A DNA stretch of 64,000 nt from Escherichia coli (GTDB taxonomy: Bacteria; Pseudomonadota; Gammaproteobacteria; Enterobacterales; Enterobacteriaceae): assembly GCF_003991155.1 (NCBI RefSeq), contig NZ_CP031295.1. The stretch is one strand, 5' to 3'. Under the pieces are notes generated by a model that was not told where the DNA came from, made no database searches, and saw only the letters and a list, made by a program, of their open reading frames with translations. This document shows, one piece after another, positions 5,965 to 60,143 of the stretch (position 1 is the stretch's first letter; each line of letters starts with the position of its first letter). The position numbers and the translations under genes were made by a program.

Positions 5965-6347
5965 GTTCAACGCAGAAACCCGCCGACGTCACGGCAGAAC
6001 AACGCATCCACTGGTGGTGGATGGTGCCGGGATGCCTGGCAATGGTGTTACTGAACGCAGCCGTCAGTTACGGCATTGTCAGACTGAACGCACCGGTGAC
6101 TGTCGCCTTCAACATGAAACAGACCGTGGATGCGTTTTTTGACAGCGCCAGTCAGAAACAACTGTCAGAAGCACAGTCAAAAGCCCTTTCAGCGCGTTTT
6201 AACACGGCACTGGAAGCCAGCCTGCAGGCGTGGCAGCAGAAACACCACGCGGTCATTCTGGTGTCGCCTGCTGTGGTACAGGGGGCACCGGATATCACCC
6301 GGGAAATCCAGCAGGATATTGCCCGGCGAATGAGGGCGGAACCATGA
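5961..6347 (+). CDS. trbI: TrbI
   Basis: 128-aa ORF with N-terminal TM helix, overlaps traC stop and traW start. Confidence 0.7.
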   Translation: MSSTQKPADVTAEQRIHWWWMVPGCLAMVLLNAAVSYGIVRLNAPVTVAFNMKQTVDAFFDSASQKQLSEAQSKALSARFNTALEASLQAWQQKHHAVILVSPAVVQGAPDITREIQQDIARRMRAEP

Positions 6348-29280: not shown

Positions 29281-29841
29281 ATGACAGAGCAGAAACGACC
29301 GGTACTGACACTGAAACGGAAAACGGAAGGGGAAACACCGACCCGGAGCCGGAAAACCATCATCAATGTCACCACGCCACCAAAATGGAAGGTGAAAAAG
29401 CAGAAACTGGCGGAGAAGGCTGCCCGGGAAGCAGAGCTGGCGGCGAAGAAAGCACAGGCCAGACAGGCGCTGTCCATTTATCTGACGCTGCCCTCGCTGG
29501 ATGAGGCGGTGAACACTCTGAAACCTTGGTGGCCGGGATTGTTTGACGGTAACACGCCCCGGCTTCTGGCCTGCGGTATCCGGGACGTGTTACTGGAAGA
29601 CGTGGCGCAGCGGAATATCCCGCTCTCGCATAAAAAACTGCGCCGGGCGCTGAAGGCCATCACCCGTTCAGAAAGCTATCTGTGTGCCATGAAAGCCGGT
29701 GCCTGCCGGTATGACACGGAAGGGTATGTGACGGAGCATATTTCTCAGGAGGAGGAAGCGTATGCGGCAGGGCGTTTGGAGAAAATTCGCCGCCAGAACC
29801 GGACAAAGGCAGAACTTCAGGCCGTGCTTGATGGGAAATAA
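29281..29841 (+). CDS. finO: FinO fertility-inhibition RNA chaperone
   Basis: 186 aa, basic N-terminus and FinO/ProQ-type C-terminal domain; terminal gene of tra region. Confidence 0.85.
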
Positions 29842-29870: not shown

Positions 29871-30812
29871 GAAACAATAAGGCTTAAAAGGAAATAACTT
29901 CCGTACCCGAAAGGAAGCCAGTCCACTGAATTATTTACCACAATAATACTGACGACTAAAAGGGAGGAGCAGAAAAATGAATGGATTCAGAAACAGTTCA
30001 CGGAACGGTCAGGTCTGGCGTTACCAGCGTGCCGGCGGGCGGGCCGTTATTCTGGAGGTCAGTGGACGCTGGATGGAAGCGGCAGAAGCATGGCGACGGG
30101 CTGCCTGCATAGCTCCCCGGACAGACTGGCAACAGTTTGCCCGGAAAAGGGCTGAACACTGCCACCGGCGCTGCCGGGGAAGGGTGTAACGAAAAAAGCA
30201 GCCTTCATTACTCCAGGAGTCAGAAGGCTGAAAGGAGTTTATGAGATTTGCTTTTTTTAATATCCGGTCGGGCAGTATGACCGGCCAGTTCTGAGTAGCA
30301 CAGAGTTTTTTCCGTATTAAGTCGCGATTTTATATTTTGTGATTAATTTCACAAAATAAGGTCTTATTCAATGTGTGCTGCGATATTCAGGGGGGCTGAA
30401 ATACAGGTGCCATTTATCTGATATGGAGAATAACATGAGGAAATATATTCCACTGGTATTATTTATCTTTTCATGGCCGGTATTGTCTGCAGATGTTCAC
30501 GGGCAGATTTATGCACCAGACAGAATGAATGTTAATTAGTTTATGAATACAACAGGGGCTGATCAGCAATCACCGGAACATCGTAGCTGACGCGTTCGCA
30601 ATGCTCAGTTGTCCCCCCCGGAAACGGGAAAAAGTAAGTTTTCCCCCGCTCCCGGCGTTTTTGTAACAAAAACAGGCAAATGGGGGTAATAGTCAGCAAC
30701 AGGGAATGTGGTATTATCGCGGCGGGTGTTTGAGCCTTTCTGGTTCAGGCAAGACGCAGGTACCAGAAATGCGAAGACCCCACTCGTTAATCCATTAACT
30801 CGTGAGGTCTGC

Positions 30813-31019
30813 ATGAAGTACCTTAACACTACTGATTGTAGCCTCTTCTTTGCTGAGAGGTCAAAGTTTATGACGAAATATGCCCTTATCGGGTTGCTCG
30901 CCGTGTGCGCCACGGTGTTGTGTTTTTCACTGATATTCAGGGAACGGTTATGTGAGCTGAATATTCACAGAGGAAATACAGTGGTGCAGGTAACTCTGGC
31001 CTACGAAGCACGGAAGTAA
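30813..31019 (+). CDS. srnB: Hok/Gef-family type I toxin reading frame (SrnB-like); toxin core 30870-31019 with overlapping leader ORF
   Basis: C-terminal ...LIGLLAVCATVLCFSLIFRERLCELNIHRGNTVVQVTLAYEARK matches Hok-family pattern (TM helix, LCEL, AYE). Confidence 0.7.
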   Translation: MKYLNTTDCSLFFAERSKFMTKYALIGLLAVCATVLCFSLIFRERLCELNIHRGNTVVQVTLAYEARK

Positions 31020-31560: not shown

Positions 31561-31694
31561 ATATTCACATTCTTGCTTATCTCAGGAGTGAGTGGTAGAT
31601 TGCTGATCGTTTAAGGAATTTTGTGGCTGGCCACGCCGTAAGGTGGCAGGGAACTGGTTCTGATGTGGATTTACAGGAGCCAGAAAAGCGAAAA

Positions 31695-31778
31695 CCCCGA
31701 TAATCTTCTTCAAGTTTGGCGACTAGAAAGATTACCGGGGCCCCATAAAACCGCATAGCCAACAATTCAGCTATGCGG
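31695..31778 (-). ncRNA. copA: Putative CopA antisense RNA / CopT target region (two stem-loops)
   Basis: Long imperfect inverted repeat 31695-31740 plus hairpin 31751-31778 just upstream of tap; strand and ends inferred from RepFIIA organisation. Confidence 0.35.
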
Positions 31779-31791
31779 GGAGTATAGTTAT

Positions 31792-31866
31792 ATGCCCGGA
31801 AAAGTTCAAGACTTCTTTCTGTGCTCACTCCTTCTGTGCATTGTAAGTGCAGGATGGTGTGGCTAA
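31792..31866 (+). CDS. tap: Tap (RepA6) leader peptide, 24 aa
   Basis: [24 protein letters not shown] read directly from sequence. Confidence 0.75.
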
Positions 31867-32333
31867 TCATGAAACACATTCAGTAATAGCGGGTGGGATT
31901 GAATCAGATCTTCACATTGATTCCAGCAAGTATCCTCACCCGTTTTGCAGCCTTCTCCAGAAAAGGGCTCATTTTGACTCCTTCAAGCATCTGATCTTCA
32001 TCAGAGGTTTGCTTGCAATAGCGCATGGCAAACGTAAAAATAAAATCAGCGCGTCGATGGTTAGTTTTTATGTTTCCCTCGTACAAGTAATGTGCGCACA
32101 CTACATCCCTGATACGAACAAAGTTAACTTATCTGTTAAAGAGCTTTCAGTTTGTAGTGGAGGTTCATACACTCGTGTTTGGAGAGCCCTCAAAACTCTT
32201 GATAATGATCTTCATCTCATCGCTTTTGATGGAGGAACCATCTGGTTCAGACCAGATATGTTCGAAACTTTACGTGTCGGCCCAGACGAGCTAGTTACCG
32301 CCCGTAGGAGGGGGAATAGTGTTGGAGGGGGAC

Positions 32334-33191
32334 ATGGCTGATCTCCTTCAAAAATACTATTCACAGGTTAAAAATCCGAATCCGGTGTTCACACCCCGTG
32401 AAGGTGCCGGAACGCTGAAGTTCTGCGAAAAACTGATGGAAAAGGCGGTGGGCTTCACCTCCCGTTTTGATTTCGCCATTCATGTGGCACATGCCCGTTC
32501 GAAGGGACTGCGTCGGCGCATGCCACCGGTACTGCGTCGCCGGGCTATTGATGCGCTGCTGCAGGGGCTGTGTTTTCACTATGACCCGCTGGCCAACCGC
32601 GTCCAGTGCTCCATCACTACGCTGGCCATTGAGTGCGGACTGGCGACGGAGTCTGCTGCCGGAAAACTCTCCATCACCCGGGCCTCCCGAGCCTTGACGT
32701 TCCTTGCAGAGCTGGGACTGATTACCTACCAGACGGAATATGATCCGCTTATCGGGTGCTACATTCCGACCGATATCACGTTCACACCGGCGTTATTTGC
32801 CGCCCTTGATGTGTCTGAGGATGCAGTGGTTGCTGCGCGCCGCAGTCGTGTTGAATGGGAAAACAGACAGCGCAAAAAGCAGGGGCTGGATACCCTGGGT
32901 ATGGATGAACTGATAGCGAAAGCCTGGCGTTTTGTGCGTGAGCGTTTCCGCAGTTACCAGACAGAGCTTAAGTCCCGTGGAATAAAGCGTGCCCGTGCGC
33001 GTCGTGATGCGAACAGGGAACGTCAGGATATCGTCACCCTGGTGAAACGGCAGCTGACGCGTGAAATCTCGGAAGGGCGCTTCACTGCCAATCGTGAGGC
33101 GGTAAAACGCGAAGTGGAGCGTCGTGTGAAAGAGCGCATGATTCTGTCACGTAACCGTAATTACAGCCGGCTGGCCACAGCTTCCCCCTGA
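32334..33191 (+). CDS. repA1: RepA1 replication initiator of RepFIIA-type replicon
   Basis: 285 codons from [27 protein letters not shown]...; C-terminus ...[12 protein letters not shown]. Confidence 0.85.
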
Positions 33192-46519: not shown

Positions 46520-47339
46520 GGCACTGTTGCAAATAGTCGGTGGTGATAAACTTATCATCCCCTTTTGCTGATGGAGCTGCACATGAACCCATTCAAAGGC
46601 CGGCATTTTCAGCGTGACATCATTCTGTGGGCCGTACGCTGGTACTGCAAATACGGCATCAGTTACCGTGAGCTGCAGGAGATGCTGGCTGAACGCGGAG
46701 TGAATGTCGATCACTCCACGATTTACCGCTGGGTTCAGCGTTATGCGCCTGAAATGGAAAAACGGCTGCGCTGGTACTGGCGTAACCCTTCCGATCTTTG
46801 CCCGTGGCACATGGATGAAACCTACGTGAAGGTCAATGGCCGCTGGGCGTATCTGTACCGGGCCGTCGACAGCCGGGGCCGCACTGTCGATTTTTATATC
46901 TCCTCCCGTCGTAACAGCAAAGCTGCATACCGGTTTCTGGGTAAAATCCTCAACAACGTGAAGAAGTGGCAGATCCCGCGATTCATCAACACGGATAAAG
47001 CGCCCGCCTATGGTCGCGCGCTTGCTCTGCTCAAACGCGAAGGCCGGTGCCCGTCTGACGTTGAACACCGACAGATTAAGTACCGGAACAACGTGATTGA
47101 ATGCGATCATGGCAAACTGAAACGGATAATCGGCGCCACGCTGGGATTTAAATCCATGAAGACGGCTTACGCCACCATCAAAGGTATTGAGGTGATGCGT
47201 GCACTACGCAAAGGCCAGGCCTCAGCATTTTATTATGGTGATCCCCTGGGCGAAATGCGCCTGGTAAGCAGAGTTTTTGAAATGTAAGGCCTTTGAATAA
47301 GACAAAAGGCTGCCTCATCGCTAACTTTGCAACAGTGCC
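46520..47339 (+). mobile_element. tnp26: IS26 copy 3 (tnp26 46583-47287)
   Basis: 14-bp IRs at both ends, intact transposase. Confidence 0.9.
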
Positions 47340-47660
47340 ACGAACAGCACCTTCAGATAATGGTATCCAGTCAATTTGTGCCTTCATAATACCAGTCATC
47401 GCTCCATGTCGTTCCGGAGAGCACCACACCATTCCTTCAGACCAGCGAACCAGTTCACGCAACTCCATAACTTTTGGATGTGATTCCGGTGCATCATCAG
47501 GAAGTGGAAGGCCAGATGGATTAAAAATGCGGACGTCTGCGCCCATTGCAGTTAACAAACGGCCTGCTTCCTCTGTCGCCAGTCGACTGTATGAGCGCTC
47601 ACGAACTGAGCCATAAAGCATTAGAATACGAGGTGGGTGAGATATTGCCGGTATCCCCAT
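47340..47660 (-). pseudogene. arsH: arsH (NADPH-dependent FMN reductase) 5' fragment truncated by IS26
   Basis: N-terminal ~107 codons with ...[13 protein letters not shown]...[24 protein letters not shown] then IS26 boundary. Confidence 0.6.
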
Positions 47661-47820
47661 TTTTTGCTCAGTTATTGCAGTATCAGATAAATCAGGAACT
47701 ATATTATTTAACCTATTAATTTTTATGATTTTCTCTATATATTCTTGGCTTAATTAGGTGTGCTTCGCACGGGTAGATACAGCATTCGTCAATCATGACA
47801 GTTATGAGTTTTCCGGTTAC

Positions 47821-48144
47821 TTACCCATTTTTGCCAGCGGGTTCCGCAACATCTGTTTTACTGTTTACACAGCACTCTTCACGTAAGAATTCGATGATAG
47901 CTTCCAGTATTTCATATTGAGAGACGCACATGAGCGTTCGACTCTCCCGGTTTTGTGTGACGAGTCCTACTGATACCAGGGCTGAAATATGATGACTTAA
48001 CGTTGATGAAGGAATGCCAAGCTGCTTTTGCAATTCACCTACAGGTAAACCTTGTTCTCCAGCTTTTACAAGATGTTTGAATATGAACAAACGGGTCGGG
48101 TGACCCAGTTCTTTTAGAGCTTTAGCTACTTCTTCCAGTTGCAT
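47821..48144 (-). CDS. arsR: ArsR/SmtB-family metalloregulator
   Basis: 107 aa with HTH (PTRLFIFKHL...LPVGELQKQLGIPSSTLSHHISAL) and C-terminal cysteine pair. Confidence 0.65.
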   Translation of the reverse strand: MQLEEVAKALKELGHPTRLFIFKHLVKAGEQGLPVGELQKQLGIPSSTLSHHISALVSVGLVTQNRESRTLMCVSQYEILEAIIEFLREECCVNSKTDVAEPAGKNG

Positions 48145-48248
48145 GTGACAACCCTCTGCCTGATGATATTTCGATAATACCAGAAATATCTTGACTATAA
48201 TTATATTTCGATTATTCTAGAATAATAGATTCTGTCAAGAGGTTTAGT

Positions 48249-49328
48249 ATGAATAGTTGGATTCCTATGTTGCAAGATGCCGCAGAGATGTTTGTTTTTC
48301 TGGCTGTTGAGCTTTCATTGCTGTTTATTGTCATTAGTGCCGGTGTGAGCCTGATAAGGCAAAAAGTCCCGGATCATAAAATTCAGCAGATGATGGGGGC
48401 GAGAAAAGGTAAGGGGTATCTGTTGGCCTCGTTGCTGGGAGCCGTTACCCCTTTCTGTAGTTGCTCAACAATTCCAATGTTGCGAGGATTGTTGTCTGCG
48501 AAAGCGGGGTTTGGTCCGACACTCACTTTTTTGTTTGTTTCACCGTTGCTTAATCCCATTATCGTGGGACTAATGTGGGTTACCTTTGGCTGGAAAGTAA
48601 CTTTGCTGTATGCGATCATCGCTGCCGGTGTTTCAGTTCTTTCCAGTATTATACTGGATTATTTAGGGTTTGAACGTCATATTGTTGAATACAAAAATTC
48701 AGTATCAGGTAGTTGCGCCACCAAGTGCGGTGATTCTGAAGCTTCGGTAAAAACGAATTGCTGTACTTCATCAGCAAAAACCATAATTAACTTAAAGACA
48801 GTAAAGAAAGAGCAAAATATATCGGCGTGTTGTCCCTCAATTCTATCAGAAAAATCTTCTGAAAGTTGTTGCAGCAGCGAGAGTCAGGGCAACAGAAATC
48901 TCACAATGAATGCCACCTCTGGTCTAATAAAATTAGCAATGAAAGATGCCTTACAACAGTTTAAGGATGTTCTGCCTTATCTTTTGTTAGCTATATTAAT
49001 AGGTTCATTTATTTATGGTTTTATCCCTTCAGAGTGGATTGCAGCTCATGCCGGTGCAGATAATCCATTAGCCATACCGCTCAGTGCTGTTGTTGGTATT
49101 CCGCTGTATATTCGTGCTGAGGCCGTAATACCACTTGCATCAGTTCTGATGACTAAAGGTATGGGCCTCGGAGCTTTAATGGCCTTGATAATCGGTAGTG
49201 CTGGAGCGAGTCTGACAGAAGTAATATTGCTTAAATCAATGTTCAGAATGCCCATGATAATCGCATTTCTGACGGTTATCTTAGGTATGGCAATCCTTAT
49301 GGGATATTTAACGCAATTTTTGTTTTAA
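48249..49328 (+). CDS. arsP: ArsP-like permease (putative organoarsenical efflux)
   Basis: 359-aa polytopic protein with TPFCSCS motif; divergent from arsR. Confidence 0.6.
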   Translation: MNSWIPMLQDAAEMFVFLAVELSLLFIVISAGVSLIRQKVPDHKIQQMMGARKGKGYLLASLLGAVTPFCSCSTIPMLRGLLSAKAGFGPTLTFLFVSPLLNPIIVGLMWVTFGWKVTLLYAIIAAGVSVLSSIILDYLGFERHIVEYKNSVSGSCATKCGDSEASVKTNCCTSSAKTIINLKTVKKEQNISACCPSILSEKSSESCCSSESQGNRNLTMNATSGLIKLAMKDALQQFKDVLPYLLLAILIGSFIYGFIPSEWIAAHAGADNPLAIPLSAVVGIPLYIRAEAVIPLASVLMTKGMGLGALMALIIGSAGASLTEVILLKSMFRMPMIIAFLTVILGMAILMGYLTQFLF

Positions 49329-49620
49329 TCCTTATGAGAAGGGATTTTTGCGTCAATATGAAAATCCCTTCAGTCTTACGGCGCGGTTCTAACGGTGTAG
49401 CCCTTTTATTGTTATCCCTAAACCACCTCCTAGGGAGGTGGTGATTGATCCTGTAAGGCTATAGCCTGAAGAATGCCCATGTCGGAATATCTCTGCTTAC
49501 TGACCACAAGTAAAAGCAACTGTTCTACCAGCAGCCTGCAAAAAACATATAAGCTGATCTGAAAGGAATACTTCACAATGAATATTATTGTGTTTGTAAC
49601 CTGCTGTTATCGCGATGAAA

Positions 49621-50238
49621 TTACCGTTCAGTTTTTTCGGTTGACGCGGACTGTTCCTGCATGGTTTTCATCTTTAGCTTCTGTTGTTCCCTTACTGCCA
49701 GCCAGCGTCTGGCATTCAGCGCATCGCATTCTGATACCTGACCTGCTGGTAGTCCATCCAGTCCATAACGAGGGATACCTGCGACAGCAGTACGCTGCAG
49801 ATATACCTGTCGGGTGGTGATGCAGGATATTGCACAGGACCATTCATCCAGTGTCAGTTCTGTCTCAGGGTGTTCTGTCAGGAATGCGGCAAAATCATTG
49901 GTTATGCCAATTTTCAGTGGAAGAAATCCTCCGCCTTCTGCGCGAAGATGGGGAAACAGAGACTTCACTTTTTCCACGCAATCGTGAGTAAATTCATGAG
50001 TCCAATGAGGCTGGCGTGGAAAACGGCGTCTTTTCTTTTTTTTCTTACAGGCAGGAGCATCAGGGGTATGAGTATCGACGGCAGGCGAACTGATCCCCTC
50101 AGAGACTGATTCTTCCATCTTTTCTGTCTCTGAACGTGCGATAACACCTGTTTTTTCAGATAAGGAAGGGGGTAAAAGAGTGCGACGTTTTTTCACCATA
50201 ATGATGGGTGTTTTCTTTTCTTCCTGATATTTCCCCAT
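49621..50238 (-). CDS. FinO/ProQ-domain RNA-binding protein (second FinO-family gene in window)
   Basis: Lys/Arg-rich N-terminus followed by FP..PLKIGI...YL...A.RYGLDG pattern shared with FinO/ProQ domain. Confidence 0.55.
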   Translation of the reverse strand: MGKYQEEKKTPIIMVKKRRTLLPPSLSEKTGVIARSETEKMEESVSEGISSPAVDTHTPDAPACKKKKKRRRFPRQPHWTHEFTHDCVEKVKSLFPHLRAEGGGFLPLKIGITNDFAAFLTEHPETELTLDEWSCAISCITTRQVYLQRTAVAGIPRYGLDGLPAGQVSECDALNARRWLAVREQQKLKMKTMQEQSASTEKTER

Positions 50239-50525
50239 AAAAACCTCTACGATGTGTTCTTATATAATAATATATATCATATTTTCACGATTAACATAAT
50301 ATCTTCGTTAAGAAAACAACAGAGCAAAATTTGTTTTTTTTTGACAGGCATGAAATGAGCCAGCATAATTATATTAATTATTATCCCAAATGAGTTTTTG
50401 TATTTGCTCATTCGGGATGGTTGGATATTTTAAGTTATATCTACTGTATCATTCTCAGGTAATCGTTCCATTAAATCAGAAACTACGGGCTGTAACCAGT
50501 CAGTGACTTCACTCACATACTGATG

Positions 50526-51992
50526 TCATTCGGGATGCCTGGAGGCCAGATCCATCACTCGTGTTAACCCGGACGGACGATCAATGCCCAATTTAGTTAA
50601 AATATTCGAGATATAATTATGAGCATCAAGTTCAACTCTGATATCCCTTGCTGCTTCGATTATTTCTAAATATTCGCCACCCAATCCGTCCAGTGGGACA
50701 TTTGTAATAAGATAATGAATGTATTGTTCAGGCTTAACCCCATTTGGGAGATTAAATTGTTTTACTTTTCCTTCCGCTGCCGCTTTTAACTCATAAGTTC
50801 GTGATTCTGTGCCGGTGAAAACTTTATCACGAGCAGTTTTCTTTTCATTTTCTGTGGAATATTTATCGCCATCAAGAATATAAAGTTTACCAGATAGATT
50901 GTCACCACGAATAAGGGTACTGGCAAGTAGAGTGAATGCGTTTGAAGCTGCGCCAAATTTAAATATTTTTACATATTTGCTGGCCTTAAGTGAAGAACAT
51001 ATTTTATTTATTATGGCAACAGCTAAGTCATCTTCTACATATATTTCAATAGGCGTCGTTGATTCACCTGTTAATCTGTTTATAGCATCAGGTTTTGTTT
51101 CTTCAAATGAATAACTACGGCCTTGAATGTTTACGACGTGTCTTATATTTATCTTGTCTGATAAAGTGGTTATCATTTCTCTATGGGTAGTAAAGATGAT
51201 TTGTTTGTTTTTATCTTTGGCATGAGATGATATGACTTCTATTAACTTTTTCAATGCTTCGTCATGCAACAATAAATCTAATTCATCAATTAATATTAAG
51301 GCGTTCTTGTCCGCTTTCAATATTGTTTCCAGAATTAAAAATATCTTTTGCTCTCCTGCGCTCATACTCAATGATGAGTAGGCCAGTCCCCCTGACTCAA
51401 CTCCAATCAATATTTTTCCATTGGGTTGTTGATGCTGATTGAAACTTGTGTATGGTTTATTAAGTATATAGGAGGCGTAATGAAGAATGTTTGTTATTAA
51501 ATCATTACTGACACTGCTGGTTTCATACTGAATATTATTCTTTTTTTCTGATTCTATTATAGGAACACATTTATCAATGCCAAGATAGTAAACTTCTCTT
51601 AAAGGACGACGAGCATAAATCTGAATCCATCGTGAGCCTCGAATATCTGCTTTTCCATAATTTTTCAATTCATTTTCAATCATTACCCCATCTTTACGAT
51701 AAGTTAAATTTACAATGAAGTCACTGCCGTTCCATTCAGCATGTGGGCTGCGTGGAAAAAAATGCATTAACCGATGGTCTTCACCGGGGAAACCTTCTTC
51801 AGGCATGTATATGCTTGCTATAGCATGGAGTATTGTTGATTTTCCGCTTCCATTTGGACCTAAAATTGCGGTTAACGCATGAGGTTTAAAAATAATCTCG
51901 TTTAATCCATTTATACATTTTAGTTTGTTAATTTTAATGGAGTTCAAGACTTGACCAGTAATGGTTTTTTTATTTTTTTCTGCCATTTTCAA
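50526..51992 (-). CDS. ABC-type ATPase fused to TOPRIM/DUF4435-like domain (OLD-family or fused PARIS-like candidate)
   Basis: Walker A GPNGSGKST, signature-like LSMSAGEQK, Walker B LILIDELDLLLHDE, H-loop TTH; C-terminal VEDD ... LYILDGDK consistent with TOPRIM E and DxD. Confidence 0.6.
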   Translation of the reverse strand: MKMAEKNKKTITGQVLNSIKINKLKCINGLNEIIFKPHALTAILGPNGSGKSTILHAIASIYMPEEGFPGEDHRLMHFFPRSPHAEWNGSDFIVNLTYRKDGVMIENELKNYGKADIRGSRWIQIYARRPLREVYYLGIDKCVPIIESEKKNNIQYETSSVSNDLITNILHYASYILNKPYTSFNQHQQPNGKILIGVESGGLAYSSLSMSAGEQKIFLILETILKADKNALILIDELDLLLHDEALKKLIEVISSHAKDKNKQIIFTTHREMITTLSDKINIRHVVNIQGRSYSFEETKPDAINRLTGESTTPIEIYVEDDLAVAIINKICSSLKASKYVKIFKFGAASNAFTLLASTLIRGDNLSGKLYILDGDKYSTENEKKTARDKVFTGTESRTYELKAAAEGKVKQFNLPNGVKPEQYIHYLITNVPLDGLGGEYLEIIEAARDIRVELDAHNYISNILTKLGIDRPSGLTRVMDLASRHPE

Positions 51993-52248
51993 ATCCTAGC
52001 ATTATGTTGGGGGGATTCACCATGTAATTCAGAAACATATAACTGTGAACAGGGGATATATCAAATCCTTTTAATATTCTATTTGGCACAGTATTCTACA
52101 TCAGGCCTCTTTTATGCTACAGACTTTTTGAGATGTCTGTAATTTTAGACTTAATGTTATGACTGATCATATCTCCTATCCACTGGTGGCGCAGGAAAGT
52201 TAACCAGCTGCCACCATGGGATGATGTGTAAACCGTGCTGGTATGTTT

Positions 52249-52839
52249 TTACGGGGTGACGCTTTCATTAACCTGTACACGAACCTCCATTCCGGCATCG
52301 TGACAGGCCTGCAGCCACTGCGCCACTTCCAGCGGATCGCCCTCCAGGCGTACCACCCTGCCTTCTTTATTCCATAACTGCAGACAGGTGCTGCCGTCGA
52401 GACGTACCACAAAATCCCCACGGCAGGCCTGATACGTTATGCCGTTCAGCTGCACCGCCAGATCAGTGGCAGAAGTGCCGTCTGCGGGCAGACCTGCTGC
52501 CGGGACCAGCGGCAGTACGACGACTTCTGCCGCACGCTGTTCTGCCCGGAGGCGGTCCTGTTCTGCCAGCAGCAGAGGCTGTGCCACGGCCCGGCCGGCG
52601 TCCGTCAGCTCGACAGCCAGCTGCAGATTCGGGGCGCGCAGGGTACGCAGCCAGCCGGCATCCTCCAGACGACGGCAGGAGGCGCGCAGGTTTGGCCCGT
52701 AGACCGGGGCTTCCCCGCTTCGCTCCAGCACCCGTTCCAGGTCCCGCGTCAGCACGGGGCCCGGCCGTTTTTCATCAAGCGCAGCCAGCACAATCAGCAC
52801 TCTCCGCTGCAGTGGCGACGGTCGGCGGCTCTGGGTCAT
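52249..52839 (-). CDS. Hypothetical protein with possible N-terminal winged-helix domain (GC-rich)
   Basis: 196-aa ORF; start overlaps upstream gene stop (TAATG); family not recognised. Confidence 0.35.
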   Translation of the reverse strand: MTQSRRPSPLQRRVLIVLAALDEKRPGPVLTRDLERVLERSGEAPVYGPNLRASCRRLEDAGWLRTLRAPNLQLAVELTDAGRAVAQPLLLAEQDRLRAEQRAAEVVVLPLVPAAGLPADGTSATDLAVQLNGITYQACRGDFVVRLDGSTCLQLWNKEGRVVRLEGDPLEVAQWLQACHDAGMEVRVQVNESVTP

Positions 52840-53096
52840 TACCTGTCATCCTCCGGCCAGATGAGGTTTCTGAGGCGCTGAAAGTCGGCGTCAATGAGCT
52901 CCTGTCTCTTTATGGCATTCATTGAGGCATAGCCATTTATGGCCAGTTCATGCCAGAAGATCAGCACGGCTCCGGCTTTGGCTGACTCGCAGAGATAAAT
53001 CGCGCCCTGGCTGTCCAGATTGCATTCCCGGATGCGTTTTTCCGCAAACCGGGTCAGTTGTTCATAGCTGAGTGAAAACACCCTTTCTTCATCCAT
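52839..53096 (-). CDS. Hypothetical small protein, first gene of two-gene cassette
   Basis: 85-aa ORF translationally coupled to 52249-52839. Confidence 0.3.
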   Translation of the reverse strand: MDEERVFSLSYEQLTRFAEKRIRECNLDSQGAIYLCESAKAGAVLIFWHELAINGYASMNAIKRQELIDADFQRLRNLIWPEDDR

Positions 53097-53449
53097 CCTG
53101 CACGCTCCATCTGATAATGTACTGACAGGTAAAAATAATATCCTGCATGATTTGTGTGCTCATGATTTCTGATAATATCAGATATTGTTTTATCATCAAT
53201 GATGAAAACCATATCTGATATGATTTTATATATATTTCTTAATTATCATATCATTTGCGTCTTTTCTGCCGCGCAGATCCAGTTTCCGGCTAAGTCGGAT
53301 CGACCTAATCTTTGTTTCTGATATGAACACCTCGGAGAGGTGTAAGCAATGGTATAAACGAAATGTATTATGTATCTGCATCACAGCATGCGGGCACATT
53401 TTGCGGAAGGATATGAATCCCCCCGGAATAACTGGCAAAGGACAGATAA

Positions 53450-55588
53450 ATGGACATTGAAATACGCCACTGCAATAACATCGTACGAGCACATATCACC
53501 CTCACTGCCGATAAACTGAACATTAAGTTTGCGCCAAATGGTACTGGAAAAAGTACGCTGTCACGGGCCATAAGCTGTGCGGCGCGGGACGACATTCAGG
53601 GACTACAGGCACTGATGCCCTTCCGGCTGCGCGGAGAAAACCCCGATAGCACCGGGCCCATTGTCATCGGTGCTGACGGGATTGGGGACGTGATGTGCTT
53701 CAACGAGGAGTACGTCAGTCAGTTTACGTTCCAACCGGACGAGCTCATCAGTGATAGCTTTAATATTCTTATCCGCAATCAAGCCCATGCGGAAAGAGAG
53801 CGTGAAATAGAAGAAATGACGCAAAAGATCCGGGCTGTTTTCACGGATCACACTGAGCTGAACTCTCTGATAGACCATCTACAGGAACTCAGTAATGCTT
53901 TCAGATCAACCAGTTCCGGGATTTCACGTTCTTCAACCGGCATGAGAGGTCTGTCAGGCGGAAATAAAATACACCACATTCCGGCTGGTCTTGAGAACTA
54001 TCAACCCTACATCCGCAGTGAACGCCGCGTGGAATGGATTGACTGGCAGACAAAGGGACTCGAGTTTTCGCCCCTTTCGGATGGCTGCTGTCCGTTCTGT
54101 ACCGGTGATATCACGGGAAAGGAAGCACAAATTCGCCAAGTCAGAGAGGAATACGATAAATCCACCATTAAAAACCTGACCGCTATCATCAGACTGGTGG
54201 AAAACCTCGGTAATTACCTGACGGAGAGCGCCAGAGAACGCCTTCTGGCCATTACTATGCTTCAGAACGGTCCGGAAGCCGAACATATCGAGTACCTAGT
54301 GGCGTTGAAACGCCAGACCGATACGCTGACAGAGAAACTCACTGCGCTGAGAGGCCTGAATGTTTTCAGCCTGCAGGAACAGCAGAACGTTCGGGAGGTG
54401 CTCACTGCCAGGTTGATTGACCTGCAGTTCTTCCCTGATCTGCAATCCGAACTCATGCAGGGGATCACCGACAGACTGAACGCGGCCCTTATGGACCTGA
54501 TAAACCTTGCCGGACCGCTGCAGGGAAAAATTAACCGGCACCGGGACAGCATGATCCGGCTGATCGCACAGCACAAAACAAACATCAATAATTTCCTCAC
54601 TTATGCAGGCTATAAATACAGGGTGGATATAGCCGGCGAGGGAGAGCAGAGAAAACTCAGGCTACGACACATAGATTTTGACGGGTACGTCAGCGGCGGT
54701 AGCCAGCATCTCAGCTATGGAGAACGGAACGCCTTTGCGATTGTGTTATTCATGTATGAATGCCTGTCAAAAAACCCGGGACTGATTATCCTTGATGATC
54801 CCATATCTTCTTTTGATAAAAACAAGAAGTTTGCCATTCTTGAAATGCTGTTCAGACGTGCAAGTGGTGAATGCCTGAAGAACCGGACTGTACTTATGCT
54901 GACGCATGACGTGGAGCCTGTGATTGACACGCTGAAGTCAGTCAGAAGGTTGTTCAGTAATCAGGTGACCGCCTCCTGCCTGCGCCTGTCTGCTGGAGTC
55001 ATAGAAGAATTACCTGTTAACGACGGCGATATCATGACATTCATGCAGATCTGCAAATCCATCACCGCGTCAGCAGACTGTGAGGAGATCATTAAGCTCA
55101 TCTATCTTCGTCGCTACTTTGAAATCGTTGACGAACGTGGTGATGCTTATCAGCTTCTATCCAATCTATTCCATCGACGCGTCGTCCCGCTGGATTATCG
55201 CGAGCCTGCCGCTGCGGGCTCGGGCTATCCCAAAATGGCTCCTGAGAAAATTCAGCAGGCCTTGCGGGATATCCGGGAGTATGTGGACAGTTTTGATTAC
55301 CCGCGACTTCAGGCTCTCGTCAGCAGCCCAGATGAAATAAAAAACCTGTACCGTCGCTGTCGTAACGGCTATGAAAAACTGCAGGTATTCCGTTTACTGG
55401 AACTGGATCAGGACCATCCGGTAATACGAAAATTCGTTAACGAAACGTACCACATTGAAAATGAGTTCATCTGTCAACTAGATCCGTCCAGATTCGATCT
55501 CATCCCGGAGTACGTGATTATGGAATGTGACAAGCTCATCGCCCTGCCACCGGCAGCAAACCAGAGCTCGGTTGCCCGTATCGCTTGA
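53450..55588 (+). CDS. Rad50/SMC-like ABC ATPase with CxxC hook and C-terminal extension (RloC/PrrC-like anticodon-nuclease candidate)
   Basis: Walker A APNGTGKST at N-terminus, CCPFC ~200 aa in, signature LSYGERNAF, Walker B LIILDDP, H-loop LMLTHD ~430-480, then ~230 aa C-terminal region. Confidence 0.5.
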   Translation: MDIEIRHCNNIVRAHITLTADKLNIKFAPNGTGKSTLSRAISCAARDDIQGLQALMPFRLRGENPDSTGPIVIGADGIGDVMCFNEEYVSQFTFQPDELISDSFNILIRNQAHAEREREIEEMTQKIRAVFTDHTELNSLIDHLQELSNAFRSTSSGISRSSTGMRGLSGGNKIHHIPAGLENYQPYIRSERRVEWIDWQTKGLEFSPLSDGCCPFCTGDITGKEAQIRQVREEYDKSTIKNLTAIIRLVENLGNYLTESARERLLAITMLQNGPEAEHIEYLVALKRQTDTLTEKLTALRGLNVFSLQEQQNVREVLTARLIDLQFFPDLQSELMQGITDRLNAALMDLINLAGPLQGKINRHRDSMIRLIAQHKTNINNFLTYAGYKYRVDIAGEGEQRKLRLRHIDFDGYVSGGSQHLSYGERNAFAIVLFMYECLSKNPGLIILDDPISSFDKNKKFAILEMLFRRASGECLKNRTVLMLTHDVEPVIDTLKSVRRLFSNQVTASCLRLSAGVIEELPVNDGDIMTFMQICKSITASADCEEIIKLIYLRRYFEIVDERGDAYQLLSNLFHRRVVPLDYREPAAAGSGYPKMAPEKIQQALRDIREYVDSFDYPRLQALVSSPDEIKNLYRRCRNGYEKLQVFRLLELDQDHPVIRKFVNETYHIENEFICQLDPSRFDLIPEYVIMECDKLIALPPAANQSSVARIA

Positions 55589-55749: not shown

Positions 55750-56166
55750 TTACTTCACCCAGTCTTCCAGCACCAGGTCAGGCACTCGCTCAAATTCTCT
55801 TGTATTATTCGTTACCAGTATCGCCCCGGCGGCGATGGCGTGCCCGGCAATCGCCGTGTCGTTCGGGCCGATCGGCGTCCCGGCCAGCCGCAGTGCCACT
55901 TTAATCTTCGTGGTGGCGTCTACTGCGGCGCGATCCCAGGGCAGGATGGCATCGAGGCGGGCGCAGAATTCATCGACCAGTTGGACGTGACGTGGTGAGG
56001 CCTTTGGGCCGGTAGCCCCGAAGCGCATTTCAGAGTAGGTGATGGCCGAGACCACTATACGGTGGCCGCGTAGCACCGCCTGCTCCAGACGCTTCAGGAC
56101 GGCTTCTGGCTGTTCACGCATGATGAACGAGCAGATACAGGTATCAAGCATATAAGTCTTGTTCAC
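55750..56166 (-). CDS. vapC: VapC/VagD PIN-domain toxin
   Basis: 138 aa MNKTYMLDTCICSFIMREQ...; overlaps antitoxin gene. Confidence 0.85.
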   Translation of the reverse strand: MNKTYMLDTCICSFIMREQPEAVLKRLEQAVLRGHRIVVSAITYSEMRFGATGPKASPRHVQLVDEFCARLDAILPWDRAAVDATTKIKVALRLAGTPIGPNDTAIAGHAIAAGAILVTNNTREFERVPDLVLEDWVK

Positions 56167-56393
56167 AGGTTAAATCGCCCTTCGTCGCTGACAACATCCT
56201 CGCGCTCCGCCATAAAATCTGGATCGGCTTTTTCGTACTCTAGGAATGATCCCCAGGTTGGCCGGACGGGGCGCAGGATGATGCTGTCCCCTTCCCGGAC
56301 GATCTCGAGCTCGCTCACCCCCTCAAAATCCAGATCACGAGGCAGACGGATGGCGCGGTTGTTGCCATTTTTGAATATCGATACGGTTCTCAT
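56163..56393 (-). CDS. vapB: VapB/VagC antitoxin
   Basis: 76-aa ORF upstream of PIN toxin with 4-nt overlap. Confidence 0.8.
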   Translation of the reverse strand: MRTVSIFKNGNNRAIRLPRDLDFEGVSELEIVREGDSIILRPVRPTWGSFLEYEKADPDFMAEREDVVSDEGRFNL

Positions 56394-56409
56394 GTTTTTT
56401 CTCTCCCGA

Positions 56410-57917: not shown

Positions 57918-60143
57918 TCAGTCGTCATTTTCCAGCGCTGTTTTGAGCGCTTCCTGCTCCGGAGTCAGCTCGTTGCCGGACAGCATAACCTTCAACTTCT
58001 CTTCGACTGCTGGCCAGTCATCAAAGAACGGACTGACCTGGTCACGCGCAATCCGGCGATATGCCCCTCGGTGGGAGCTGAAGACACTGGTCTGTAATCG
58101 TATCAACAGGTTAACAAGGCCTTCATCAGTGGTAGTAACTTCTCTGACCCATTGCTTCACGGTTTCACCTGAACTCATGTCTCTCCAGGCGTAGAGATAC
58201 CCGAGAAGAGACTTGCGCAGGAGAAGCTGTTGCTGAAGTTCTGGTTGATTCATACGTTCCGCAAACCTGTCACGCAACCGTTCCGTAATATCGCGACTGA
58301 AAAGAGCGTCTGAAGGCGAAGGTACTGCATTCTGAGCAAGTCCATGTTCCCAGATAAGATCCCGCATAAAATCGGCTATCCAGAACGGCGAAGCACCCGT
58401 AACGATCAGTTTTTCCATAAGCGTGATCGTTCTGGTCTCATCAATATCCTGCATATGCTTCAGCAGATGCCGTACAACCTCATTAATGGCCATTTCACGC
58501 AGGGAAAACCATGGGTTACGGATACTGAAGCGAGTGCTCACCTCATCGGTGTGATCGAAGAAAAAATGAACCAGTCCTGCGCACTCTTCGAAATTACGTT
58601 CTCTTATCAGGCCTGGAGTCAGTCTGCTCAGTATATGTTCAAACCAGGTTCCGGACAGACTGCCCACACTGTTGATTTTTGAGAGCAGCAATTCAGAAAG
58701 CTGCTGCTGTTTTTCCGATACGCCAGCCTGTTCAAAAAGCTGTCTGAAGAATTCAGGTGGCAGAACATTCTGTGGTGAGGAGAAGGCAAAATAATATCGC
58801 CAGTGCGTCAGGCTGCTGAGTCGTTTACCGGTCGTCTGGATATGACGAAAATCCTCACTGACGGGCTCAAAAAGATTCAGATATTCATCATTATGTCCAC
58901 TGATACCTGGGATCCAGTCTGCAAGTGTCAGAAACGAGTCTGCATTTGATGCCCTGAACGTCTTCATACATCTGATAAGCCCCTCCCGGAAGTCTGCTTT
59001 CTCTCCGTCAGAAAGCATACCCTGACCGGTTTCAATCACGGACCGTTCTGTCAGGTAATGCTCTGTCCAGTCATACAGAGCCGGGTTTGTCACCCGTATA
59101 AGCTGAAGCAGGCACAAATCAGGGAAATAAACAAAATCCCGCATCCCCGGATAAAGAAAAATCAGGGAATTAATGGCCTGATGGATTTCCCGTGGCGTCG
59201 AAAGTGCGGCACCATAGGTATCAGTCACCGCGATGAGATCCCTTACCATTCCAGAGTCTGGCGGTTGATTATTAATTTGCTGATATAGAGCCTCAGCCCG
59301 CTGGCGAAATTCATTACGTAAATCAAAGGCTTCAGGTCGGGGTAATTTAAAACTAAGCTGAATGATTTTCTGGAGATAACGGCTGCCATCTTCGATATTC
59401 AGCGCATGTTCAACGGCATGAGTGATAATCTGCCTGTCATAACAGAGAATATGGGTAAAGCGGGGCAGATCGGCTACTGCACGCACAAGCCTGAACACTT
59501 CCGCCACCTGGGATGGCTCCAGTCGGTCCAGATCATCCATGACAACAATGAACTTCAGATCCAGACTCACCAGTTGTCCTGCAATTTCAGCCCGAAGCTT
59601 TGTCGTGGTTTTCTGATCAACAGCCAGACGGCTGTCTGAAAATACCTTTATTCCGCCTGCTATCCAGTTAATAATGCTGGAAAACTGTCCGATATATTGA
59701 ACCAGTGGAAGGACGCGCGATGAAGTATCCTGAGCATACTCAATCACTTTTTGAGCTTCCGGTGACAACAGATATTTACGCCAGAGCTTTTTGAAGCCCT
59801 TCGGGGGATAGCGTATTTCCATTTCCTGCTGGATAACCGTGGCAACCGGAAGAAAGAGCGCTTCAACCGGACTGCCGCCACTCAGCCAGGGAGAAATATG
59901 CAGCACATGCGTGTGAGCATCTTTTTTCAGGGCAAGGTTTCTCAGGATCAGATTAAGGAGGCTTGTTTTACCCGATCCCCATGCACCTTCTATTCCGACA
60001 ACATTTGAAGCCTCCAGAGGAAGAGTAAGGATGGAACGGGATATATTTTCTGCGATATTACCGAAACCGTATCGATCCTCAGGTACATCTTCAACTGCCG
60101 CATCAAGCCCTTTCTGGTTCCACAGCTGCCTCAGTATCTTCAT
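57918..60143 (-). CDS. KAP-family P-loop NTPase
   Basis: 741 aa; Walker A GIEGAWGSGKTSLLNLI, Walker B FIVVMDDLDRLEP, large helical C-terminal region. Confidence 0.7.
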   Translation of the reverse strand: MKILRQLWNQKGLDAAVEDVPEDRYGFGNIAENISRSILTLPLEASNVVGIEGAWGSGKTSLLNLILRNLALKKDAHTHVLHISPWLSGGSPVEALFLPVATVIQQEMEIRYPPKGFKKLWRKYLLSPEAQKVIEYAQDTSSRVLPLVQYIGQFSSIINWIAGGIKVFSDSRLAVDQKTTTKLRAEIAGQLVSLDLKFIVVMDDLDRLEPSQVAEVFRLVRAVADLPRFTHILCYDRQIITHAVEHALNIEDGSRYLQKIIQLSFKLPRPEAFDLRNEFRQRAEALYQQINNQPPDSGMVRDLIAVTDTYGAALSTPREIHQAINSLIFLYPGMRDFVYFPDLCLLQLIRVTNPALYDWTEHYLTERSVIETGQGMLSDGEKADFREGLIRCMKTFRASNADSFLTLADWIPGISGHNDEYLNLFEPVSEDFRHIQTTGKRLSSLTHWRYYFAFSSPQNVLPPEFFRQLFEQAGVSEKQQQLSELLLSKINSVGSLSGTWFEHILSRLTPGLIRERNFEECAGLVHFFFDHTDEVSTRFSIRNPWFSLREMAINEVVRHLLKHMQDIDETRTITLMEKLIVTGASPFWIADFMRDLIWEHGLAQNAVPSPSDALFSRDITERLRDRFAERMNQPELQQQLLLRKSLLGYLYAWRDMSSGETVKQWVREVTTTDEGLVNLLIRLQTSVFSSHRGAYRRIARDQVSPFFDDWPAVEEKLKVMLSGNELTPEQEALKTALENDD

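What the first reader, a model, noticed from the sequence alone, without database searches (positions are those of the whole stretch)
49621..50238. Second FinO/ProQ-domain protein encoded far from the tra-associated finO
Besides canonical finO (29281-29841), a 205-aa protein with a basic N-terminus and FinO/ProQ-like C-terminal domain lies at the edge of the accessory island. A paralogous RNA chaperone could target a different antisense-RNA pair (for example the replicon or a type I toxin) or cross-regulate conjugation.
Basis: inference. Interest (0 to 1): 0.45.

Follow-up and report, generated by a model that had tools for sequence, protein, structure and literature searches.

The report
Orphan FopA-type RNA chaperone gene
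The gene is real and encodes a second FinO-domain RNA-binding protein, a close relative of the known plasmid copy-number regulator FopA, but the plasmid replicon whose antisense RNA FopA normally serves is missing here.

Summary
Window 49621-50238 (-) is a 205-aa ORF. It has a basic, disordered N-terminus and a C-terminal ProQ/FinO domain (Pfam 47 bits against a cut-off of 27). In the AlphaFold model that domain has pLDDT 95-98, and its top 26 PDB matches are all FinO-domain structures.

It is not a close paralogue of the plasmid's own FinO. It is an orthologue of FopA/YafB, 69% identical over 196 residues without gaps to the characterised Salmonella pCol1B9 protein. FopA chaperones the antisense RNA Inc onto the repZ mRNA of I-complex plasmids.

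The gene lies in a 3.6-kb block of I-complex backbone, next to an IS26-bounded resistance island. RefSeq already names it "ProQ/FINO family protein" (WP_000521603.1). Genes at least 90% identical to it occur in about 7% of complete E. coli genomes.

Neither the window nor a matching complete IncFIB/IncFIC plasmid contains Inc/repZ. Ten of 13 typed plasmids with this exact allele lack an I-complex replicon.

The only Inc homologue present is CopA of the RepFIC replicon. However, published data say FopA does not bind transcripts of an IncF plasmid. The gene is most likely an orphaned passenger able to act only in trans. It is a new member of a known kind, of modest interest.

The parts
49621..50238 (-). 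fopA-like CDS, 205 aa (RefSeq WP_000521603.1, 'ProQ/FINO family protein')
   Evidence: ORF found. It is 69% identical over 196 aa, without gaps, to FopA of pCol1B9.
49675..49986 (-). ProQ/FinO domain (aa 85-188). The 3'-nucleotide pocket residues G111, Y146 and R157 and the N-cap residue T129 are present.
   Evidence: Pfam match. AlphaFold pLDDT is 95-98. Foldseek matches to RocC and FinO. The roles of these residues are taken from PMC9674577.
50002..50238 (-). Basic, predicted-disordered N-terminal region (aa 1-79) with two K/R runs, as described for FopA
   Evidence: pLDDT is 52-73. pI is 10.1. The description of the FopA N-terminus is in PMC7491321.
50244..50248 (-). Shine-Dalgarno-like AGAGG, 5 nt upstream of the ATG
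   Evidence: Read directly from the sequence.
49525..53093 (.). Block of I-complex plasmid backbone holding fopA, an HEC-04-like ABC-type ATPase and two hypothetical genes. It is 96.6% identical to an IncI1/B/O-typed plasmid. The homology stops 96 nt 3' of the fopA stop codon.
   Evidence: blastn against L002. Annotation. PADLOC and Pfam matches for the ATPase.
47821..49328 (.). arsR-like regulator (47821-48144, -) and ArsP_1 permease (48249-49328, +). They replace the DUF6685-repA side of the I-complex context.
   Evidence: Pfam matches. Context comparison.
46583..47287 (+). IS26 transposase gene that bounds the resistance island next to the module
   Evidence: ORF. Matches the IS26 annotation of the identical plasmid region. 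The 100% IS26 match runs to about 47340.
31686..31774 (-). CopA antisense RNA of the RepFIC/FII-type replicon. It is the only Inc homologue in the window and therefore the candidate, unproven, cis ligand.
   Evidence: Rfam CopA at 93.6 bits. Inc hits the CopA model at E=3e-5. nhmmer with the Inc/repZ leader hits only 31667-31793. Alignment and folds.
29281..29841 (+). Canonical, tra-associated finO (186 aa), the first FinO-domain gene of the window

Best explanation
The ORF encodes a FopA/YafB-type FinO-domain RNA chaperone. By analogy with characterised FopA and with the RocC-RNA structure (inferred, not shown here), the FinO domain would clamp the 3'-terminal nucleotide and lower stem of a terminator-like hairpin of a small antisense RNA. 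The basic disordered N-terminus would then help that RNA anneal to the leader of a replication-initiator mRNA. This would lower initiator translation and plasmid copy number. In its native setting the gene lies 2-5 kb from the repZ/repA replicon of I-complex plasmids, and its main ligand is the antisense RNA Inc. Here the gene sits in a 3.6-kb fragment of I-complex backbone, beside an IS26-bounded resistance island, on an IncFIB/IncFIC ColBM/ColV-type plasmid that has no Inc/repZ. I therefore read it as an orphaned passenger: an intact and probably active chaperone with no cognate target in cis. Any effect it has would be in trans, on the Inc RNA of a co-resident I-complex plasmid or on look-alike RNAs. 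What is shown: the gene, the domain, the fold, orthology to FopA, absence of Inc/repZ, and a distribution across unrelated replicons. What is inferred: RNA binding, retained Inc specificity, and lack of a cis role.
For: Identity. The match to FopA is 69% over 196 aa with no gaps and E=9e-99, and the Tyr146 and Arg157 named in the FopA paper sit at the same positions. The Pfam ProQ/FinO match is above threshold. The FinO fold is predicted at pLDDT 95-98, and the top 26 PDB matches are all FinO-domain structures. dN/dS against FopA is 0.30 at dS 0.62, which indicates purifying selection across the clade. Origin. Window 49525-53093 is 96.6% identical to an I-complex plasmid in which the gene lies next to repA. 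Orphan status. Rfam finds no PK-repZ or PK-repBA in the window, and none in the complete 122.9-kb plasmid pCREC-544_1, which carries the identical module. nhmmer, blastn and tblastn with the Inc leader and RepZ find only the CopA region. Of 13 typed plasmids carrying this exact allele, 10 lack an I-complex replicon; they include IncF/IncN hybrids and an IncQ1/IncY plasmid. Retained Inc competence. The nucleotide-identical allele also occurs on IncI-gamma/K1 plasmids. FopA alleles 31% apart are paired with an identical Inc/repZ leader. Trans opportunity. Strain WCHEC025970 carries both an IncF plasmid with this allele and an I-complex plasmid.
Against: There are no expression or RNA-binding data for this allele. 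The simple promoter scan found no sigma-70 site on the gene's strand. The gene is intact and identical in hundreds of records. That could reflect selection for a function in these hosts rather than recent spread. The plasmid's own CopA is a true homologue of Inc and could be a cis ligand. The replicon typing covers only 13 plasmids and is not a random sample.
Confidence: 0.55

Rival explanations
1. The protein has been co-opted by the IncF plasmid. It binds CopA and/or the repA leader of the RepFIC replicon and tightens the plasmid's own copy-number control, in the way FopA does with Inc/repZ.
For: CopA (31686-31774) is the homologue of Inc. Inc scores 38 bits (E=3e-5) on the Rfam CopA model. 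nhmmer with the Inc leader hits only the CopA region. The two RNAs share 59 of 95 positions, the same long 3' hairpin, the CGCCAA loop motif, the GGCCCC/GGGG lower stem and a UUUUC(G/C)CUU tail. RepZ also reaches the Pfam IncFII_repA threshold. The gene lies on the same side of the rep gene and in the same convergent orientation as in I-complex plasmids. It is separated from RepFIC-pemIK mainly by the IS26 resistance island.
Against: The review PMC9977716 states that FopA does not bind pSLT transcripts in SL1344. Yet pSLT CopA has the same lower stem and tail, so that similarity is not sufficient for binding. The exact allele also occurs on plasmids typed without any IncFII or IncFIC replicon, for example IncFIA/IncFIB/IncN, the pESI-like plasmid and IncQ1/IncY. 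It is nucleotide-identical on I-complex plasmids, so there is no sign of adaptation to IncF.
Confidence: 0.2
2. The gene is a functionless remnant, either not expressed or without any ligand, carried along by IS26-driven rearrangements and on its way to decay.
For: The module has been cut from its replicon 96 nt after the stop codon. The adjacent ATPase carries a nonsense SNP in this lineage. One related plasmid has an IS2 insertion at the locus and no annotated ProQ/FinO gene under the match (H13). No sigma-70 site on the gene's strand met the scan's criteria. The allele is spread across unrelated replicons.
Against: The ORF is intact, with a good Shine-Dalgarno sequence and all pocket residues. 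It is 100% conserved in most records. The AT-rich upstream region is retained from the I-complex context, where the gene is presumably expressed.
Confidence: 0.15
3. It cross-regulates conjugation (FinP/traJ) or a type I toxin-antitoxin pair (hok/sok) on this plasmid.
For: The plasmid family carries FinP/traJ and two hok/sok loci. In IncI2 plasmids the related pcnR-like gene lies immediately downstream of a hok/gef gene.
Against: An intact canonical FinO is present for FinP. FinO could not complement a pcnR deletion, which indicates separate targets (PMC8053102). FopA is reported not to bind pSLT transcripts, and pSLT encodes the FinO/FinP system. No Rfam RNA family matches near the gene.
Confidence: 0.05

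Closest known systems
FopA (YafB) of Salmonella Typhimurium plasmid pCol1B9 (IncI-alpha); Gerovac et al. 2020, PMC7491321
   Same: The two proteins align over their full length: 69% identity over 196 aa with no gaps. Both have a disordered N-terminus with two basic runs. Both have a FinO domain with Tyr146 and Arg157 at identical positions. Neither has FinO_N or the ProQ C-terminal domain.
   Different: 31% of residues differ, and the last roughly 10 residues are unrelated. The gene neighbours differ: an HEC-04-like ATPase and arsP/arsR here, against yagA and yafA there. Most importantly, no Inc/repZ replicon is present on this plasmid, whereas the FopA paper reports equal phylogenetic distribution of FopA and Inc/repZ.
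FopA-type protein of IncB/O/K/Z and IncI-gamma/K1 plasmids (WP_000521604.1; putative ProQ/FinO proteins noted in PMC8053102)
   Same: 92% amino-acid identity, within the same block of two hypothetical genes, the ATPase and fopA at 96.6% DNA identity.
   Different: In those plasmids the gene is followed by DUF6685 and repA, with a PK-repZ/Inc leader identical to that of pCol1B9. Here arsP/arsR and IS26 follow instead.
PcnR of IncI2 mcr-1 plasmids (Yang et al. 2021, PMC8053102)
   Same: Both are plasmid-borne FinO-domain proteins of the same broad branch. The IncI2 ProQ/FinO gene I take to be pcnR is about 35% identical to this protein. PcnR represses translation of the replication initiator.
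   Different: The sequences are far more distant. PcnR binds a stem-loop in the repR leader directly, independently of the antisense RNA. The IncI2 gene lies next to hok/gef.
FinO of F-like plasmids (the window's own 29281-29841)
   Same: The same Pfam domain and fold. Both have a basic N-terminal extension.
   Different: There is no significant pairwise similarity (E=0.18). The FinO_N domain is absent. The gene is not tra-linked. On the alpha-5 N-cap helix, FinO's basic residues K, K, R, R, K are replaced by D131, E132, S134, C135 and S138.

Membership tests
ProQ/FinO domain family (PF04352) | Profile match above the curated threshold | tested here: met
   47.1 bits against a cut-off of 27, E=2.6e-12, aa 85-188.
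ProQ/FinO domain family (PF04352) | FinO-domain fold | tested here: met
   The AlphaFold domain has pLDDT 95-98. The top 26 Foldseek PDB hits are RocC, FinO, Lpp1663 and NMB1681, with target-normalised TM up to 0.84 and rmsd 2.4-2.5 A. The next hit has E above 1.
ProQ/FinO domain family (PF04352) | Conserved 3'-nucleotide pocket: Tyr, Arg and the beta-turn Gly (RocC Tyr87, Arg97, Gly52) | tested here: met
   Y146, R157 and G111 are invariant or nearly invariant in the 54-sequence alignment. Their roles are taken from PMC9674577.
ProQ/FinO domain family (PF04352) | Alpha-5 N-cap Ser/Thr plus the basic residue five positions on (RocC Ser70 and Arg75, the latter about 80% conserved) | tested here: inconclusive
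   The N-cap residue T129 is present. The Arg75-equivalent position is S134, and it is L in FopA itself. The whole FopA clade lacks basic residues on this helix, yet FopA binds RNA. This rests on a MAFFT alignment, not a structural superposition.
ProQ/FinO domain family (PF04352) | Binding of structured RNA with a 3' tail | not testable with these tools
   Needs EMSA or RIP-seq.
FopA/YafB clade | Full-length collinear similarity to characterised FopA, including its distinctive N-terminus with two basic stretches | tested here: met
   69% identity over 196 aa with no gaps, E=9e-99. The N-terminus is described in PMC7491321. The N-terminal 79 aa have pI 10.1.
FopA/YafB clade | Genetic linkage to an I-complex replicon with Inc antisense RNA and repZ (reported as equal phylogenetic distribution) | tested here: not met
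   There is no PK-repZ or PK-repBA, no Inc and no RepZ in the window, nor in the complete matching plasmid. Of 13 typed carriers of the exact allele, 10 lack an I-complex replicon. This is a feature of context, not of the protein, so orthology stands.
FopA/YafB clade | Binds Inc RNA and accelerates Inc-repZ duplex formation | not testable with these tools
   The support is indirect. The identical allele occurs on IncI-gamma/K1 plasmids, and divergent alleles pair with an identical Inc.
Canonical FinO (fertility inhibition) | FinO_N domain, NCBIfam FinO subfamily match, and a position at the distal end of the tra operon | tested here: not met
   There is no PF12602 or NF010317 hit for this ORF, whereas the window's finO has both. 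The gene lies about 20 kb from finO.
PcnR (IncI2) | Close sequence similarity to the IncI2 protein and an IncI2 replicon context | tested here: not met
   Only about 35% identity to the IncI2 plasmid protein, in a different context.

The most novel reading that the evidence does not exclude
The orphan FopA carried by IncF and other plasmids is an inter-plasmid regulator. By chaperoning the Inc RNA of co-resident I-complex plasmids, or, after rewiring, the homologous CopA of its own RepFIC replicon, it would let one plasmid set the copy number of another. This would extend the FinO-RepX precedent to a chaperone that has been physically separated from its cognate replicon and spread by IS26-associated mosaic regions.
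Probability: 0.25. Interest if true: 0.6.

Novelty: new member of a known kind. Interest (0 to 1): 0.3.

Why it matters
FopA, PcnR and FinO are the model cases in which a plasmid-encoded FinO-domain chaperone represses its own plasmid. The FopA paper reported that FopA and its target Inc/repZ share the same distribution. Here the same kind of chaperone sits on IncF, IncN-hybrid, pESI-like and even IncY/IncQ1 plasmids that lack that target, and genes at least 90% identical occur in about 7% of complete E. coli genomes. If the protein is active, it gives a ready natural test of two things: cross-plasmid copy-number control, and what determines RNA choice among FinO-domain proteins (Inc against the very similar CopA). 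If it is inert, it is simply a hitchhiking remnant and the finding is ordinary.

Tried and rejected
1. The full FopA RIP-seq target list could not be checked for CopA, because no supplementary files are held for PMC7491321. I relied instead on the review's statement that FopA does not bind pSLT transcripts.

2. The first blastn script returned nothing because loci are stored together in one file. It was rerun correctly.

3. A permissive Rfam scan of 47500-53500 found no RNA family near the gene. There is therefore no evidence for a local cis-antisense partner.

4. The promoter and terminator scan found no sigma-70 site on the gene's strand. It found only two terminator-like sites, both inside the CDS and at about chance level. 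A 9-bp GC-rich hairpin at about 49422-49442, between the convergent arsP and fopA genes, has no U-run and was not counted as a terminator.

5. tblastn with RepZ and blastn with the Inc leader found nothing in the window.

6. PADLOC gave no hit for the FinO-domain protein itself.

7. Two literature searches found no paper on an IncF-borne FopA.

8. dN/dS between the window allele and the I-complex allele is 0.65, but it rests on only 22 substitutions and is uninformative.

9. I considered and rejected the idea that this is a paralogue that arose by duplication of the resident finO.

10. One Pfam call failed on wrong repA1 coordinates and was repeated.

Full report
**Observation**

The ORF is present exactly where stated: 49621..50238 on the minus strand, 205 aa, with an ATG start. 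An AGAGG Shine-Dalgarno sequence lies 5 nt upstream.

- Pfam places a ProQ/FinO domain (PF04352) at residues 85-188, with E=2.6e-12 and 47.1 bits against a cut-off of 27.
- The N-terminal 79 residues are basic. Their pI is 10.1, and they hold two K/R runs at 16-19 and 65-72.
- The canonical finO at 29281-29841 is confirmed by FinO_N plus ProQ domains and a 357-bit NCBIfam FinO match.
- An HMM built from the family alignment finds only these two FinO-domain ORFs among 589 open segments of the window.

**Fold**

I built a 54-sequence alignment from two homology searches. The AlphaFold2 model from it has mean pLDDT 82.6. Residues 1-78 look disordered (pLDDT 52-73) and residues 80-200 score 95-98.

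Foldseek against the PDB returns only FinO-domain structures in the first 26 places. These are RocC 7rgt/7rgu (target-normalised TM 0.71-0.84, rmsd 2.4-2.6 A), FinO 1dvo, Lpp1663 6s10 and NMB1681 3mw6. The next hit has E above 1.

The residues that form the 3'-nucleotide pocket in the RocC-RNA structure are Tyr87, Arg97 and Gly52 (PMC9674577). They correspond to Y146, R157 and G111, which are invariant or nearly invariant in the alignment.

**What it is**

The protein is not a close relative of the resident FinO; BLASTP between the two gives E=0.18. It is 69% identical over 196 residues, without a single gap, to the ProQ/FINO protein at 5713-6315 of pCol1B9_SL1344. That protein is FopA, formerly YafB.

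Gerovac et al. 2020 showed that FopA binds the ~70-nt antisense RNA Inc and accelerates its pairing with the repZ leader (PMC7491321). The Tyr146 and Arg157 they name sit at the same positions here. Their description of the N-terminus, two positively charged stretches with no FinO_N and no ProQ C-terminal domain, also fits this protein.

- dN/dS against FopA is 0.30 at dS 0.62.
- A tblastn scan of PLSDB gives 3,218 plasmids in four identity bands. 373 are at 99% or more. 320 are at 90-95%, mostly I-complex versions. 1,465 are at 60-80%, the IncI1 yafB/fopA genes. 1,023 are below 60%; the examples I inspected are IncI2 (about 35% identical) and Klebsiella (about 28%) genes.
- RefSeq already names the exact protein WP_000521603.1 "ProQ/FINO family protein".
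- 383 of 5,426 complete E. coli genomes carry the gene at 90% nucleotide identity or more.

**Context**

Window 49525-53093 is 96.6% identical to an IncI1/B/O-typed plasmid. That block holds fopA, an ABC-type ATPase and two small hypothetical genes. In that plasmid, and in an IncI-gamma/K1 plasmid, the gene is followed by DUF6685 and then repA.

In the window the homology stops 96 nt after the fopA stop codon. An ArsP_1 permease, an ArsR-type regulator and IS26 follow instead. The gene therefore sits in a fragment of I-complex backbone at the edge of the IS26 resistance island. The host plasmid is otherwise IncFIB/IncFIC of ColBM/ColV type, with a tra operon, finO, a RepFIC replicon, and colicin and aerobactin genes in the matching complete plasmid.

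**The cognate target is missing**

- Rfam finds PK-repZ in pCol1B9 and in the IncI-gamma/K1 plasmid, but not in the window.
- It also finds none in the complete 122.9-kb plasmid pCREC-544_1, which carries the identical module. That plasmid's antisense RNAs are FinP, CopA, two Sok and the AS-tra/pc02 families.
- blastn with the Inc/repZ leader and tblastn with RepZ find nothing. nhmmer hits only the CopA/CopT region at 31667-31793, with E=4.5e-4.
- Of 13 plasmids carrying the exact allele for which I read the replicon typing, 10 have no I-complex replicon. They are IncFIB/FIC (three plasmids), IncFIA/FIB/FIC, IncFIA/FII/N, IncFIA/FIB/N (two plasmids), IncFIA/N, a pESI-like IncFIB megaplasmid and IncQ1/IncY. 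The other three carry IncI-gamma/K1.

This departs from the "equal phylogenetic distribution" of FopA and Inc/repZ reported in 2020. My sample is small and not random.

**Could CopA be the ligand?**

CopA of the window's RepFIC replicon (31686-31774, Rfam 93.6 bits) is a genuine homologue of Inc.

- Inc scores 38 bits (E=3e-5) on the CopA covariance model.
- The two RNAs share 59 of 95 aligned positions, the long 3' hairpin, the CGCCAA loop motif, the GGCCCC/GGGG lower stem and a UUUUC(G/C)CUU tail. The lower stem and tail are the elements a FinO domain reads, according to PMC9674577.
- RepZ also just reaches the Pfam IncFII_repA threshold, at 23.0 bits against 22.9.

The evidence against is also substantial.

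- pSLT CopA has the same lower stem and tail, so that similarity is not sufficient for binding in vivo, at least when Inc competes.
- The allele is nucleotide-identical on I-complex plasmids, so it shows no adaptation to IncF.
- It also occurs on plasmids typed without any FII or FIC replicon.

**Mechanism and verdict**

I commit to the following reading. This is an intact FopA-type chaperone that would work as FopA does. Its FinO domain would hold the 3' end and lower stem of an Inc-type antisense RNA. Its basic N-terminal tail would promote annealing to the rep leader. The outcome would be repression of Rep translation.

On this plasmid it is an orphaned passenger with no cognate target in cis. 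Retained Inc competence is likely for two reasons. The identical allele serves IncI-gamma/K1 plasmids. FopA alleles 31% apart are paired with an identical Inc leader.

A trans effect on co-resident I-complex plasmids is therefore possible. Strain WCHEC025970 carries both plasmid types.

Rival readings are co-option for CopA/RepFIC control (about 0.2), a decaying remnant (about 0.15), and regulation of FinP or Sok (about 0.05).

**Difference from FinO, ProQ and RocC**

In the MAFFT alignment, the alpha-5 N-cap helix keeps its cap residue (T129). It lacks the basic side chains seen in FinO: K, K, R, R, K are replaced by D131, E132, S134, C135 and S138. The position equivalent to RocC Arg75, reported as about 80% conserved, is Ser here and Leu in FopA. 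This holds across the FopA clade. It may relate to the clade's distinct RNA choice, but that is inference only.

**Novelty**

The domain, the fold and the family are known, and the gene is already annotated. No paper in the searchable library discusses a FopA on IncF plasmids or one separated from Inc/repZ. I rate it a new member of a known kind. Interest is modest (0.3), driven by the orphan context and the directly testable question of cross-plasmid regulation.

Noticed in passing
window 31792-33191: The RepFIC/FII-type replicon carries an extra cistron between the tap leader peptide (31792-31866) and repA1 (32334-33191). This is the ORF 31847..32341 (164 aa from its first start). Its start overlaps the end of tap where repA1 starts in classical IncFII (from memory of R1, not checked here). 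Its stop overlaps the repA1 ATG (ATGGCTGA). RefSeq annotates a 483-nt 'hypothetical protein' here. Pfam and NCBIfam give no match. Only about 404 of more than 5,000 matching PLSDB records carry the whole segment; in the other listed rows the match splits in two around it. If translation of repA1 is coupled through this ORF, the CopA/tap control circuit has an added step.
   Followed up: partly
window 50526 (ATPase gene 50526-51992, -): The ABC-type ATPase upstream of fopA (PADLOC HEC-04, E=4e-42; Pfam AAA_21/AAA_15) is 488 aa here, against 518 aa in pSMS35_130 and in I-complex plasmids. The cause is a single C-to-T change on the + strand (TGG to TGA on the coding strand), which removes the last 32 codons. 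The same variant is annotated in pCREC-544_1 and pPBS4.
   Followed up: yes
window 53450-55588 (+): A 712-aa AAA_13 ATPase matches the PADLOC candidate defence family PDC-S06 almost end to end (949 bits). A vapBC pair follows in the matching plasmid's annotation (window about 55750-56400). The fopA module therefore lies in a cluster of candidate defence and addiction genes.
   Followed up: partly
window 50341-50369 (+): A near-consensus sigma-70 site (TTGACA, 17 nt, CATAAT; 11 of 12 matches) lies in the AT-rich spacer upstream of fopA. It points away from fopA, antisense into the 3' end of the ATPase gene. It could drive an antisense transcript, or it could be a chance match in AT-rich DNA; the scan expected 2.8 promoter-like sites in this region by chance.
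   Followed up: no
window 30724-30882, 30086-30271, 25072-25148, 15735-15820: Rfam gathering-level hits were found for sok (hok/sok), AS-pc02, AS-traI and AS-traG antisense RNAs. The window holds several other structured antisense RNAs that any FinO-domain protein could in principle meet.
   Followed up: no
L005 (IncI2 plasmid NZ_CP086505.1) 3826-4791: In this IncI2 plasmid the ProQ/FinO gene (about 35% identical to the query; I take it to be the pcnR-type gene) lies immediately downstream of a DUF5431/Hok-Gef type I toxin locus.
   Followed up: no
alignment A1, query residues 129-138 (window about 49825-49854): The whole FopA clade lacks the basic residues on the alpha-5 N-cap helix that contact hairpin phosphates in RocC, FinO and ProQ. 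The RocC Arg75-equivalent position is Ser here and Leu in FopA. The 3'-nucleotide pocket is fully conserved. This rests on a MAFFT alignment only.
   Followed up: partly
window 57918-60143 (-) vs L001 28919-33103: The 741-aa ORF next to pifC is uninterrupted in the window. In pCREC-544_1 the corresponding P-loop NTPase gene is split by an IS100 insertion. The window therefore does not come from that exact plasmid.
   Followed up: no
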